Assembly: GCA_951406725.2 (NCBI GenBank)
Contig: OX597836.1
Location: forward strand, 27,900,001-27,964,000
Reading direction: 5' to 3'
From: Octopus vulgaris
Taxonomy: Eukaryota
DNA length: 64,000 bases
The translations under genes were made by a program, and so were the position numbers. Below the pieces are notes generated by a model. The model searched no databases. It had not been told where the DNA came from and worked only from the letters and a program-made list of their open reading frames with translations. This document shows, one piece after another, positions 2,956 to 23,187 of this stretch (position 1 is its first letter; each line of letters begins with the position of its first letter).

Positions 2956-3885
2956 TTAAGTCCATGATAGATTCCTCTTTATGAGCTGGAAAAACATATC
3001 GTTATATGGCTTAAAGTATTTAGTCATTTCTTTTGCTATTACCTTGCTTGTGCTTACGTTTCGGTGACCCTTATTTGGTGGCAAACATTTCGATTCAGAG
3101 TTTATTAACAAACAGTAGAACCCCCTGGTGTTATTATATATAAAGTTGTCCCTGGAAATTAACCTCTTTAGACCGAGAAAATCTTGAACTTTGAGCAGCT
3201 CTTCTTGCGGATCTACAATCAGTTTGCTACCGTCTGCTACGTGAATCTGGTTTAGTGGAAAATATTGCAACCAGCGGATGAGATAGCGATAATAGACCGA
3301 TTTGGCGATGGGGTAATATCCTACGTTCAGTTTCTGGGTTTTATCGTCGTAAACGATCTCTTCAAACGAATGTTTTGCTTCTTTCCCGCTGTGGTGAGTT
3401 CGTCGGTGGATGTATTCCGATATAGAACGATCCACAGGATTTTTAACAATCAGAATCAACTTGATAGTTCTATTCATTTTATGTATCCGAAATGGTGCTT
3501 TGTCACTATAGAAATATTCCGGTGATTTTTCCATTGTGATCTGGTCTGGACAAGATAAAGGCATTTTTTCCACGTAGTAGTTCATCCCTTTCTGGTAATT
3601 ATCATCTCTGTGGAAAAATTTCGGTTCTCCCTCGGCTACGGCAACAGCAGGGTGCACCCCAATAAACTCAAGTAATGCTTTCGTACCCGACTTCGGTGTA
3701 CCTATAATAATACAACTGGGTAGCCGTTGCCTCGCATCACAATTCATGAGTTTCTGGTTCGTGTAGGCTGGAGTCAACTTGCCCTGGGGAAACACTTGGG
3801 AAAAATGGGAAAATAATCCCAACAGCAAACAGAGCAAGATGACTGTCGGTAAAATATAGACGTTTCGAAGCCGAAGATTCATCAT
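2956..3885 (-). CDS. Heparan sulfate glucosamine 3-O-sulfotransferase-like protein (HS3ST1/HS3ST5-like), paralog A, 309 aa, single coding exon
   Basis: Intact ORF with an N-terminal hydrophobic anchor (ILPTVILLCLLLGLF). Contains RLPSCIIIGTPKSGTKALL (5'-PSB loop), EPKFF (catalytic Glu), EKSPEY, LIVKNPVDRSISEY (3'-PB), WLQYFPLNQIHVADG and GFYC-x8-C-x4-KG, and ends in WT. This is collinear with the HS3ST family. Confidence 0.93.
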   Translation of the reverse strand: MMNLRLRNVYILPTVILLCLLLGLFSHFSQVFPQGKLTPAYTNQKLMNCDARQRLPSCIIIGTPKSGTKALLEFIGVHPAVAVAEGEPKFFHRDDNYQKGMNYYVEKMPLSCPDQITMEKSPEYFYSDKAPFRIHKMNRTIKLILIVKNPVDRSISEYIHRRTHHSGKEAKHSFEEIVYDDKTQKLNVGYYPIAKSVYYRYLIRWLQYFPLNQIHVADGSKLIVDPQEELLKVQDFLGLKRLISRDNFIYNNTRGFYCLLINSESKCLPPNKGHRNVSTSKVIAKEMTKYFKPYNDMFFQLIKRNLSWT

Positions 3886-3924
3886 ACTCCGTAACCTTGA
3901 AATCAGGTCGTTCCGATAGAGTTT

Positions 3925-3975
3925 CTGAAATTAGACAAAAACAAAGCAATCAAAAACAGAGAAAAAAAAAACTGA
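3925..3975 (-). promoter_or_regulatory. Splice acceptor of a 5'-UTR intron of paralog A
   Basis: The minus strand has a polypyrimidine tract followed by TGTCTAATTTCAG|AAA, 39 nt upstream of the ATG. The same 13-mer precedes paralog B. Confidence 0.75.
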
Positions 3976-20876: not shown

Positions 20877-21400
20877 TCGTAAATCCTCGAGTATAAACCG
20901 CATTTTTTTCCCAAAATTTTAAAGGTCAAAGTCCCTAGTGCGTATTATATATACGAGGTTAAAGATGAAAAATATTTTCTAGGCAATGTCCGAGTCTCTA
21001 TTTGCTGCCCGGCAATGTTTATTCTGACACATTTTGTGATGTCAGGTGCAAAAATACCTTAAGCTAAGCCTGAAAGCAATGAAGTCATAAAAGAATCATC
21101 ATAACTTGCAATAAGCAACATCTATTAAAATAAAAGTATTCAGAACACAGAATAACATGTAACAAAAGCAATTTGCAAACATATTTACACTCCCATATAA
21201 CAGTTAAGAACATCACCATTATTGTATTACGCATGCGCGGAAGTGTTTGTTCGACTAGGTGCTGCTGGCTTAATTACGCACGACTCAAGTTAGAGAAGGA
21301 GTGCGTATTATACACAAGATTTAGGTTTTTCAGAGGTACAGCCTCCTAAAAATCCCCTGCGTATTATACTTAAGGGCGGACTATACTCGAAGATTTACGG
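20877..21400. mobile_element. Tc1/mariner-superfamily (Tc2/pogo-like) MITE in (TA)n
   Basis: TIRs CGTAAATCCTCGAGTATAAACCGC and GCGGACTATACTCGAAGATTTACGG, TA flanks and subterminal GCGTATTATA repeats. A related single end lies at 62615-62680. Confidence 0.8.
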
Positions 21401-22260
21401 TATATATATATACTGTTTCCTGTTCCGTTATTGGTAGAATCAATAAAAAAAAGTACTCGAATCATCGAATCAGTGAGAAATAAATATCATATATATATAT
21501 ATATATGTATATATATATATATATATGTGTGTGTGTGTGTGTGTGTATGTGTGTGTATAAATGTACACAACCAGACACGAATATTCGAGGTACTTCATTA
21601 CAGTTTCCACTTACCAAACTTCATTTGCAAGTTGTTGATCTATTTGAGTCTCTGAGAGCAGACTCTTGACCTAGGTACCGCGCTGTGCAATCGAACCCAG
21701 ATCTACGTACTTGCAAAATGTATCCCTTGATCAAACAACCACTTCTGTGCTTAGAACATTATACTTCCACCGAAATACGGTCTTACTGTTCCTACGCACG
21801 TTCTTTCGAAAGGTCGTGTCAAGAACCACACTTTCCATAGAAATATATCAGTCACAAGCTATCTTCTGCCGAATCCAAACCTCAATGACTTCCAATAAGC
21901 TGTTGTAATTCGGCAGTATTAGGGTCCTATTCTTCTAAAAATAAAATAAAAGTATTCTACATATAAATCTATCTGGTGCCTATTTCCATCTAGCTAAGGG
22001 AATGGAGATACTTCGAGTACAGCAAGCTGTTCTGAAACAAAACGAAAAGCGTTCTGTATATTTTGAACATAAGACACATCATCTAACGCATTACTTTAGT
22101 TTCGCCTTCATAATCAAAACAACACACACGAAAATAATTTCAAAAATAGTCTATATTTATTCATTTGTTTTGTTTTCGCTAAAGTGTTTGTTGCTCTTCT
22201 TGGCTTTCTCATTTTTTTTCACCTGATTCTAGTTTTGATTTCATGCTGTATATATTTTAT

Positions 22261-23187
22261 TTAAGTCCAAGTCAGAGTTTTATTTATTAACTGGAAAAAC
22301 ATATCGTTATATGGTTTAAAGTATTTAGCCATTTGTTTTGCTATTACCTTGCTTGTGCTTACGTTTCGGTGACCCTTATTTGGTGGCAAACATTTCGATT
22401 CAGAGTCTATTAACAAACAGTAGAATCCCCTGGTGTTATTATATATAAAGTTGTCCTTGGAAATCACCCTCTTTAGACCGAGAAAATCTTGAACTTTGAG
22501 CACCTCTTCTGATGGGTCTACAATCAGTTTGCTACCGTCTGCCACGTGGATCTGGTTTAAGGGGAAATGTTGCAACCAGCGAATGACAAATCGAGAGTAA
22601 ATTGATCTCATAATCGGGTAATATGACGTCTTGAGTTTGTCGGTTTTATCATCGTAAACAAGCTCTTCAAAGGTGTGTTTTGCCTCCTTTATGTTGTGGT
22701 AGTATCGTCGGTGGATGTATTCCGATATAGAACGATCCACGGGATTTTTAACAATCAAAATCAACTTGATAGTTTTGTTCATTTTTTTTATCCGAACCGG
22801 TGCTTTGTCACTGTAGAAATATTCCGGTGATTTTTCTATAGTGATTTGATCAGGACAAGACAGAGGCATTTTCTCCAAGTAGTAATTCATCCCTTTCTGG
22901 AAGTTATCCTCTCTGTGGAAAAATTTCGGTTCTCCCTCGGCAACGACAACAGATGGATGTACCCCAATAAACTCAAGTAATGCTTTCGTACCCGACTTCG
23001 GTGTACCTATAATAATACAGCTGGGTAGCCGTCGCTTCGCATCACAGTTCATGATTTTCTGGTTCATGTAGGTCGGAGTCATTTTGACCTTCGAAATCGC
23101 TAGAGTATAATAGGATAATATAACCAACAGGTTACAAAATACGATGGCTATCGGCCAAATATAGATGCTTCCATATCGAAATTTCAT
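22261..23187 (-). CDS. HS3ST-like sulfotransferase, paralog B, 308 aa from the ATG at 23187
   Basis: Same motifs as paralog A, with about 43 differences over the ~274-aa lumenal part (~84% identity, counted by eye). The ORF track starts at a TTG (23199); the ATG at 23187 aligns with the second Met of paralog A. Confidence 0.93.
   Translation of the reverse strand: MKFRYGSIYIWPIAIVFCNLLVILSYYTLAISKVKMTPTYMNQKIMNCDAKRRLPSCIIIGTPKSGTKALLEFIGVHPSVVVAEGEPKFFHREDNFQKGMNYYLEKMPLSCPDQITIEKSPEYFYSDKAPVRIKKMNKTIKLILIVKNPVDRSISEYIHRRYYHNIKEAKHTFEELVYDDKTDKLKTSYYPIMRSIYSRFVIRWLQHFPLNQIHVADGSKLIVDPSEEVLKVQDFLGLKRVISKDNFIYNNTRGFYCLLIDSESKCLPPNKGHRNVSTSKVIAKQMAKYFKPYNDMFFQLINKTLTWT

What the first reader, a model, noticed from the sequence alone, without database searches (positions are those of the whole stretch)
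2956..23187. Two intact HS3ST-fold sulfotransferases with a rewired acceptor site: candidate enzymes for a non-heparan substrate
Seen: both paralogs read GTPKSGTKAL / EPKFFH / SEYIH / NKGH, where canonical HS3ST1 reads GVRKGGTRAL / EVHFFD / SDYTQ / SKGR. Established: in mouse 3-OST-1, R67, K68, R72, E90, H92, D95, K123 and R276 are required for activity. Here K68, catalytic E90, K123, the 3'-PB Ser and the C-terminal disulfide are kept. The substitutions R67>P, R72>K, H92>K, D95>H, Q163>H and R276>H are shared by both copies, so they look fixed rather than decayed. Inference: these are active Golgi sulfotransferases with a different acceptor. Octopus and squid cartilage contain chondroitin sulfate with 3-O-sulfated glucuronic acid (CS-K type), and I know of no identified enzyme for it. 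These genes are plausible, untested candidates.
Basis: partly seen in the sequence, partly recalled or inferred. Interest (0 to 1): 0.72.

Follow-up and report, generated by a model that had tools for sequence, protein, structure and literature searches.

The report
Retooled cephalopod heparan-sulfotransferase offshoot
Two intact octopus copies of a sugar-sulfating enzyme, from a branch found here only in octopus, argonaut and cuttlefish-type animals, keep the catalytic core of heparan 3-O-sulfotransferases but have swapped most residues that grip the sugar, so they likely sulfate a different glycan; the rare cartilage chondroitin proposed as that target is one untested candidate among several.

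Summary
Both minus-strand frames (22261-23187, 308 aa; 2956-3885, 309 aa) are intact HS3ST-fold proteins with every quoted motif. The six acceptor-site changes also occur in O. bimaculoides, O. sinensis, Argonauta and Sepia (Asn instead of His at D95 in cuttlefish-type sequences). These form one clade (100/99), and the genome still holds a near-canonical HS3ST5-like gene plus six HS3ST3/4-type genes. Copy A is spliced and polyadenylated; catalytic dN/dS between copies is 0.21. Changes cluster in the acceptor cleft (6 of 10 conserved cleft columns against 7 of 73 elsewhere, p = 0.0007). Corrections: the true starts probably lie in exons 72 and 155 kb upstream, and the two copies may be alternative last exons of one gene. 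Retooled HS3ST paralogs are common (39 of 142 gap-free relatives change 3 or more of the 6 sites). CS-K is untested: the known GlcA 3-O-sulfotransferase (CHST10) belongs to another family, with 15 matches in this genome. Verdict: a real, lineage-specific new variant; acceptor likely non-N-sulfated; CS-K about 0.17.

The parts
22135..23229 (-). Last exon of copy A: 14 in-frame codons before the annotated ATG, the transmembrane anchor, stem, whole sulfotransferase domain and 3' UTR to the poly(A) site
   Evidence: Contigs of 4 of 4 laid runs stop at 23230. Three have loose ends matching upstream exons; one has a poly(A) tail at 22135. AATAAA at 22161.
22261..23187 (-). ORF A from the in-exon ATG, 308 aa (P0001), HS3ST-fold type II membrane sulfotransferase
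   Evidence: Pfam PF00685 E 4e-24; human 3-OST-5 E 1e-66; contained without change in a named Octopus vulgaris protein.
2956..3924 (-). Coding part of the last exon of copy B, behind a splice acceptor that matches A's (exon start inferred by homology)
   Evidence: Acceptor sequence. B-specific contig pieces at 3467-3619 and 3713-3874 in one run and 2604-3043 in another; no junction seen.
2956..3885 (-). ORF B, 309 aa (P0002), 78% identical to A overall and 85% in the catalytic domain
   Evidence: Contained without change in named O. vulgaris and O. sinensis proteins.
22256..23497 (-). Duplicated unit (aligns to 2951-4205 at 81% over 1258 bp): last coding exon plus about 270 bp of upstream intron; no 5' exons duplicated
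   Evidence: blastn of 19001-30000 against 1-19000. No copy of either upstream exon was seen in the window beyond microsatellite hits (whose output was cut in the middle).
22984..23001 (-). 5'-phosphosulfate loop of A: P63 (R67), K64 (catalytic K68, kept), K68 (R72); B equivalent 3679-3696
22915..22932 (-). Catalytic base E86 (E90, kept) with K88 (H92) and H91 (D95); B equivalent 3610-3627
22822..22833 (-). K119 (K123, kept) and E122, at the position of 3-OST-3 S218 that contacts the acceptor's N-sulfate; B equivalent 3517-3528
22711..22749 (-). 3'-phosphate-binding region: K147 (R151), S155 (S159, kept), H159 (Q163); B equivalent 3406-3444
22369..22377 (-). K271 (K274, kept), G272, H273 (R276); B equivalent 3064-3072

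Best explanation
[quoted passage not shown] Shown: intact frames with a membrane anchor; a high-confidence HS3ST fold; the PAPS-binding Lys, Thr, Ser and Lys and the base Glu are kept; purifying selection; spliced, polyadenylated RNA for copy A. Inferred from the 3-OST-3 contact tables: Glu86 still deprotonates the acceptor hydroxyl. The basic triad that holds the acid group one sugar towards the non-reducing end (R166, K215, K368) survives as K68, K119 and K271. The N-sulfate contact S218 has become Glu122. The reducing-side uronate contacts (K161, Q255, K259) are replaced by Pro, His and Tyr/His/Thr/Met. The His/Asp pair behind the base is replaced by Lys and His/Asn. The cleft stays as basic as in canonical enzymes, so the acceptor is likely still a polyanion: most simply an N-acetyl or N-free glucosamine in a heparan-like or mucus-type chain, or a GlcA in chondroitin if the register has shifted by one sugar.
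For: AlphaFold model pLDDT 95, pTM 0.92; Foldseek TM 0.87-0.92 to 3-OST-1, -3 and -5. Core residues are invariant across 8 clade rows. Clade support 100/99 with stem 0.6; profile score gap 619 to 307 bits. A-versus-B dN/dS 0.21 in the catalytic domain and 0.82 in anchor plus stem. Spliced and polyadenylated A. Cleft-focused change, p = 0.0007. Cleft charge 6 K/R and 4 D/E, net +2, equal to the median of 141 relatives. Contact map from PMC8341778 Suppl. Tables S1-S2. The genome keeps a near-canonical HS3ST5-like gene (L003, one of six sites changed) and six HS3ST3/4-type second exons, so these copies are free to specialise.
Against: No activity data exist. In human 3-OST-3, K161A, R166E, H186F, D189N, Q255A and R370E each leave under 1% activity on heparan sulfate (PMC8341778), so six changes at these sites could also mean a dead enzyme. 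3-OST-1 has Ala at the S218 position and the contact is partly through the backbone NH, so Glu122 need not exclude an N-sulfate; side-chain orientation could not be checked because no coordinates were returned. R72>K is conservative. D95>N also occurs in 4 of 21 named invertebrate proteins of the canonical branch and in two fish HS3ST1-like proteins, so the D95 change alone is not diagnostic.
Confidence: 0.55

Rival explanations
1. A narrower form of the best explanation: these are the missing chondroitin GlcA 3-O-sulfotransferases that make CS-K, CS-L and CS-M. The acceptor would be an internal GlcA, which like GlcNS is gluco-configured, 4-O-substituted and has a free 3-OH. Glu122 would pair with its 2-OH, the kept basic triad would hold the sulfate of the preceding GalNAc, and the lost reducing-side uronate contacts would fit a GalNAc in that position.
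For: CS-K is reported in octopus, squid and king crab, and CS-L/M in squid (PMC6696379 Table 1, PMC8858990, PMC5103875). The clade spans octopods and cuttlefish-type sequences. The pattern of kept and lost contacts is compatible (inference). No paper in the library names such an enzyme (0 hits for six phrasings).
Against: CHST10/HNK-1ST already sulfates C-3 of GlcA, including GlcA in chondroitin sulfate (PMC11989750 passages). Its family (PF03567, recalled) has 15 matches in this genome, including lineage-specific clusters. GlcA(3S) chondroitin also occurs in king crab and sea cucumber, where no member of this clade was found (a word-limited search), so a second origin would be needed. The kept triad binds a uronate carboxylate in HS3STs, which fits a heparan-type chain more simply. 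No tissue data.
Confidence: 0.17
2. [quoted passage not shown]
For: Closest structures and sequences are HS3STs. E90, K123 and K274 are kept and R72>K is conservative. Single changes at these sites occur in the canonical branch. Human isoforms already differ in flanking-sugar choice (PMC8341778).
Against: All six sites plus the His278 gate and the S218 position are changed together and fixed. Only 1 of 142 other gap-free relatives changes all six. The genome has at least seven other HS3ST loci with canonical visible sites or one change.
Confidence: 0.25
3. They are catalytically dead or nearly dead pseudo-enzymes kept to bind PAP or glycans, or to regulate partner Golgi enzymes.
For: Single mutations at six of the changed sites abolish 3-OST-3 activity on heparan sulfate. 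The His/Asp pair behind the base is gone.
Against: The residues kept without exception are exactly the catalytic acid, the base and the PAPS contacts. A scaffold would not be expected to keep Glu86 while changing its neighbours. Among 39 relatives with 3 or more cleft changes, 22 likewise keep the whole core.
Confidence: 0.13
4. One or both copies are decaying duplicates.
For: Copy B had only partial cover and no splice junction in the 4 runs laid, which were chosen for holding A. B was not seen among the O. bimaculoides records listed.
Against: No stops or frameshifts; dN/dS 0.21; B's 309-aa frame is identical in a named O. sinensis protein; the clade is conserved at 60-63% identity between octopods and cuttlefish-type sequences.
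Confidence: 0.03

Closest known systems
[quoted passage not shown]
   Same: Fold (TM about 0.9), 38-42% structural-alignment identity, type II anchor, PAPS motifs, catalytic Lys and Glu, C-terminal Cys pair.
   Different: Six activity-critical acceptor residues, the His278 gate and the S218/A126 position are changed and fixed; the clade is separate from the canonical invertebrate branch.
Expanded HS3ST ('OST') sets of pulmonate snails and Octopus bimaculoides (bioRxiv 10.1101/2020.02.02.930693)
   Same: That preprint already counts 13 OST genes in O. bimaculoides and 10-11 in pulmonates and links them to mucus glycosaminoglycan (passages read). A 16-row heterobranch gastropod clade here also has an acid at the S218 position in all rows and loses H92 in 15 of 16.
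   Different: The passages read treat them as ordinary HS3STs and do not discuss active-site changes (supplements closed, not seen). The gastropod clade keeps Q163 and R276 and does not group with the cephalopod clade in the careful tree.
Drosophila pipe
   Same: A glycosaminoglycan-sulfotransferase homolog that sulfates vitelline-membrane components, with ten isoforms sharing a first exon (PMC3291829 passages). It is the precedent both for repurposing and for alternative catalytic exons on a shared 5' end.
   Different: Pipe derives from the HS 2-O-sulfotransferase family, not HS3ST. Here there are two catalytic exons, each with its own anchor, and splicing of B to the shared exons is not shown by reads.
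CHST10 / HNK-1 sulfotransferase
   Different: Different sequence family: the best PF03567 locus of this genome has no significant similarity to copy A (best E 3.3). That CHST10 prefers chain-terminal GlcA is recalled, not read here.

Membership tests
PAPS-dependent sulfotransferase, HS3ST/NDST fold (Pfam PF00685) | Sulfotransfer_1 domain above the curated cut-off | tested here: met
   85.8 and 91.6 bits against a cut-off of 22
PAPS-dependent sulfotransferase, HS3ST/NDST fold (Pfam PF00685) | Same three-dimensional fold | tested here: met
   Predicted model of A, pLDDT 95; TM 0.87-0.92 to HS3STs and 0.84 to the NDST1 sulfotransferase domain
PAPS-dependent sulfotransferase, HS3ST/NDST fold (Pfam PF00685) | 5'-PSB Lys/Thr, 3'-PB Arg/Lys and Ser, lid Lys, catalytic Glu | tested here: met
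   K64, T67, K147 (Arg>Lys, also in 13 of 149 relatives), S155, K271, E86
HS3ST gene family (descent) | Closer to HS3STs than to NDST or other sulfotransferases | tested here: met
   E 1e-66 to 3-OST-5 against 1e-31 to NDST1. The trees held no NDST outgroup, so the parent subfamily is unresolved.
Canonical HS3ST enzyme (EC 2.8.2.23) | Acceptor-binding set R/K67, R72, H92, D95, Q163, R276 | tested here: not met
   0 of 6 canonical in all 8 clade rows
Canonical HS3ST enzyme (EC 2.8.2.23) | Orthology to invertebrate HS3ST-A or HS3ST-B | tested here: not met
   Separate clade (100/99). The genome's L003 sits in the canonical branch and the C7 loci group with HS3ST3/4-type proteins.
Canonical HS3ST enzyme (EC 2.8.2.23) | Transfers sulfate to the 3-OH of N-sulfoglucosamine in heparan sulfate | not testable with these tools
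   Needs an enzyme assay
Golgi type II membrane protein | Single N-terminal hydrophobic anchor, lumenal N-glycosylation sites | tested here: met
   19-residue hydropathy peaks 2.26 and 2.17; four sequons each. Golgi location itself is inferred.
CHST10/HNK-1ST family (PF03567) | Sulfotransfer_2 domain | tested here: not met
   No PF03567 hit for either protein; no similarity to locus L015
Chondroitin GlcA 3-O-sulfotransferase (CS-K enzyme; no member named in the papers searched) | Forms internal GlcA(3S) on chondroitin; expressed in cartilage | not testable with these tools
   Runs are coded and carry no tissue labels; no assay possible
pipe-like locus (shared 5' exons, alternative catalytic exons) | Both catalytic exons spliced to the same upstream exon | tested here: inconclusive
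   A is joined to two upstream exons in run contigs. A public gene model joins one of those exons to B (P0004). No junction contig for B in 4 runs.

The most novel reading that the evidence does not exclude
This coleoid branch of the HS3ST family has switched polymer and is the long-missing enzyme that puts 3-O-sulfate on internal glucuronic acid of cephalopod chondroitin (CS-K, CS-L, CS-M). In Octopus it would be one gene of more than 175 kb that splices shared front exons to either of two catalytic last exons with different fine specificity.
Probability: 0.15. Interest if true: 0.78.

Novelty: new variant of a known kind. Interest (0 to 1): 0.45.

Why it matters
Public databases label these proteins as ordinary HS3ST1 or HS3ST5, and a snail-genome preprint counts the cephalopod expansion as more of the same. 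The residue map says that label is probably wrong for this branch and for about a quarter of the diverse HS3ST-like proteins retrieved. That makes invertebrate HS3ST paralogs an unassayed pool of glycan sulfotransferases with new acceptors. One expression-and-assay experiment would tell whether this branch makes GlcA(3S) chondroitin, a neuroactive marine glycan for which the searches here found no named enzyme, or a non-N-sulfated 3-O-sulfated heparan-like chain. Either would be a useful tool for chemoenzymatic glycosaminoglycan synthesis.

Tried and rejected
1) Primary mutagenesis papers for 3-OST-1, -3 and -5, the HS3ST review and the HNK-1ST paper were not held.
2) The look-up of sequencing runs listed no holder on record as RNA; the evidence for transcription is the splice and poly(A) loose ends, not the labels. 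Uncovered parts of copy B are not counted as evidence.
3) No tissue assignment was possible.
4) A shared origin of the cephalopod clade with gastropod and unnamed proteins that have an acid at S218 was suggested weakly by the quick tree (support 80) but not by the careful tree, where the nearest rows are three unnamed proteins at 82/97, unstarred. Treated as unresolved, probably convergent.
5) 'Shared by both copies' as independent evidence was rejected: the longest run of identical synonymous codons is 32 (permutation p = 0.023) and dS is patchy, 0.20 to 1.26.
6) Upstream exons of the O. sinensis gene models map to window 39733 and 5544 but had no read support here and were not adopted.
7) Eight transposon-like frames in the window gave no Pfam hit.
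8) Cross-species dN/dS was not possible because only proteins were retrievable.
9) That NDST lacks the His/Asp pair is recalled; the NDST1 paper passages did not address it, so it is not used.
10) Paper searches (listings and abstract starts) found nothing on this clade or on a CS GlcA 3-O-sulfotransferase; most subscription journals are outside the library.
11) Rows dropped before counts: 7 of 149 representatives with gaps at scored sites (142 left); 7 of 172 rows left out of the first tree.
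Full report
Observation. Six-frame translation finds two long non-repetitive frames with the quoted motifs, both on the minus strand: A, 22261-23187, 308 aa, and B, 2956-3885, 309 aa. Both hit Pfam Sulfotransfer_1, and A aligns end to end with human 3-OST-5 (E 1e-66) and mouse 3-OST-1 (E 2e-63), far better than with NDST1 (E 1e-31). 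With the numbering of PMC8341778 Suppl. A and B are contained without change in proteins that NCBI names Octopus vulgaris HS3ST5.

Gene structure. Contigs of four runs from four studies all stop at 23230, at an AG acceptor 14 codons upstream of A's ATG. Three continue into other sequence, and one carries a poly(A) tail at 22135, 26 bases after an AATAAA. One loose end maps uniquely to G000:C23:28078879-28078907, 155 kb upstream, and ends at a GT donor. The other is only 12 bases. A 15-base pattern built on it has two genomic matches, no more than its control, but one lies 72 kb upstream on the right strand, ends at a GT donor and encodes the same five residues that start an O. bimaculoides isoform. 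The duplicated unit is only the last exon plus about 270 bp of intron, B has the same acceptor and phase, and a public gene model joins the 72-kb exon to B (P0004). A and B may therefore be alternative last exons of one long gene. Reads did not show this: B had only partial cover and no junction in four runs picked for holding A.

Fixed, not decayed. Between A and B, dN/dS is 0.21 in the catalytic domain and 0.82 in anchor and stem. Synonymous divergence is patchy (dS 0.20-1.26; longest identical run p = 0.023), which hints at gene conversion, so sharing between the copies is weak evidence. The strong evidence is taxonomic. The same set (P, K, K, H or N, H, H) is in O. bimaculoides, O. sinensis, Argonauta, Sepia pharaonis and unnamed cuttlefish-like records. 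These form one clade, 100/99, on a stem of 0.6 changes per site (7 clade rows among 80). A profile of the clade finds only five 90% clusters before scores fall from 619 to 307 bits (word-limited search). The model of A has pLDDT 95 and matches 3-OST-1, -3 and -5 at TM 0.87-0.92.

Of 21 named invertebrate proteins in the canonical branch (picked by me), 16 have all six canonical residues, 4 differ only by D95N, 1 (krill) differs at three, and none has the cephalopod set. The octopus genome has its own HS3ST5-like gene L003 (D95N only), six second exons of HS3ST3/4 type on C7 with Q163 and R276 intact, and two partly changed paralogs, L004 and L005. So A and B are extra.

How special is it? Less than the finding implies. 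Among 142 gap-free representatives at 50% identity, 72 have no change at the six sites, 39 have three or more, and 22 of those 39 keep the whole catalytic core; one has all six changed. Named examples are a hemichordate, Elysia and Bradybaena, and a 16-row snail and slug clade. A preprint already reports HS3ST expansions in pulmonates and O. bimaculoides and ties them to mucus, without discussing active sites in the passages read (10.1101/2020.02.02.930693; supplements closed). The cephalopod branch is at the extreme end of a recurrent pattern.

How it likely works. Changes cluster in the cleft: at 70% conservation, 6 of 10 cleft columns against 7 of 73 other columns (p = 0.0007); 0.003 at 60%; 0.12 at 80%. 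The contact tables of 3-OST-3 with an octasaccharide (PMC8341778 Suppl. Tables S1-S2) sort the changes by subsite. Donor and chemistry (K162, E184, PAPS loops) are kept. The carboxylate of the non-reducing neighbour is held by R166, K215 and K368, which survive as Lys, Lys, Lys; its 2-O-sulfate contact R370 is now His. The acceptor's N-sulfate contacts S218, which is Glu in every clade member. An acid there occurs in 12 of 147 relatives, 10 of which also lose H92 (rows not independent). The reducing-side uronate contacts K161, Q255 and K259 are all replaced. Net cleft charge is unchanged. The inference is an active enzyme for an anionic chain whose acceptor sugar is not N-sulfated (0.55). Against this: six of these sites, mutated singly, each leave 3-OST-3 under 1% active on heparan; 3-OST-1 has Ala at S218 and part of the contact is through the backbone; and nothing was assayed.

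The CS-K proposal. GlcA(3S) chondroitin is reported from octopus, squid, king crab and sea cucumber (passages of PMC5103875, PMC6696379, PMC8858990). Six phrasings of a chondroitin GlcA 3-O-sulfotransferase return no paper. The geometry is compatible by inference: GlcA in chondroitin is 4-O-substituted with a free 3-OH, has a 2-OH where heparan has the N-sulfate, and has no uronate on its reducing side. But CHST10 already sulfates GlcA C-3, chondroitin included (PMC11989750 passages); the family it is recalled to belong to has 15 matches in this genome; the clade was not found outside cephalopods; and the kept triad fits a heparan-type chain more simply. I put CS-K at about 0.17, within the 0.55.

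Comparison and verdict. By descent and fold these are HS3ST-family proteins. By the acceptor-site test they are not canonical HS3STs. The best functional and architectural analogue is Drosophila pipe (PMC3291829 passages). An earlier AI note on another locus of this genome describes a similar duplicated last-exon layout; it was not checked here. Novelty: new variant of a known kind. Interest 0.45: real, expressed, testable in one assay and probably mis-annotated, but part of a common invertebrate trend and with no substrate shown.

Noticed in passing
G000:C7:51.16-75.88 Mb (L006-L012): Six second exons of HS3ST3/4-type genes on one chromosome, plus one first exon with a long low-complexity stem (L012): a cephalopod expansion of the HS3ST-B type with canonical visible sites.
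   Followed up: partly
L004 (G000:C3:152474089-152474856) and L005 (G000:C10:90158294-90159046): Two more single-exon HS3ST paralogs with partial acceptor-site changes (L004: R67>S, Q163>H, A126>M; L005: R72>G), on long branches.
   Followed up: partly
L019, L021, L022, L023 (G000:C1:21.16-22.31 Mb); L018, L024 (G000:C7:33.63 Mb): Clusters of PF03567 (CHST8-14/HNK-1ST-type) sulfotransferase exons. The four on C1 are near-identical but differ in the stretch after the 5'-PSB loop. They are alternative candidates for unusual chondroitin sulfation.
   Followed up: partly
Proteins P0289, P0293, P0324-P0327, P0330-P0333, P0338, P0340, P0342, P0346, P0384, P0277: A well-supported heterobranch gastropod HS3ST-like clade (100/99) with Ser at R67, Asp at the N-sulfate contact and H92 lost in 15 of 16 rows. 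A candidate link to non-N-sulfated snail mucus glycosaminoglycan, untested.
   Followed up: partly
window 23046-23044 and 22857-22855 (C48, C111 of copy A): A second cysteine pair, in the stem and after the first helix bundle, invariant in all 7 rows of alignment A3; it may form an extra disulfide (distance not checked).
   Followed up: no
window 22288-22358 and 22483-22333 region (A codons about 235-284) versus B: Only one synonymous codon difference between A and B over about 50 codons, against dS 1.26 in the acceptor helix region (codons 160-204): possible gene conversion sparing the segment where the copies differ most.
   Followed up: partly
window 9865-10410, 15767-17320, 2008-2301: Broken frames that look like LINE or Penelope-type retroelement remains (by eye); no Pfam hit at E 0.01.
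   Followed up: partly
window 30008-30352 and 46837-47202: Two-copy tandem repeats of 172 and 184 bp; the second resembles a short interspersed element also seen beside both upstream exons (L013, L014), by eye.
   Followed up: no
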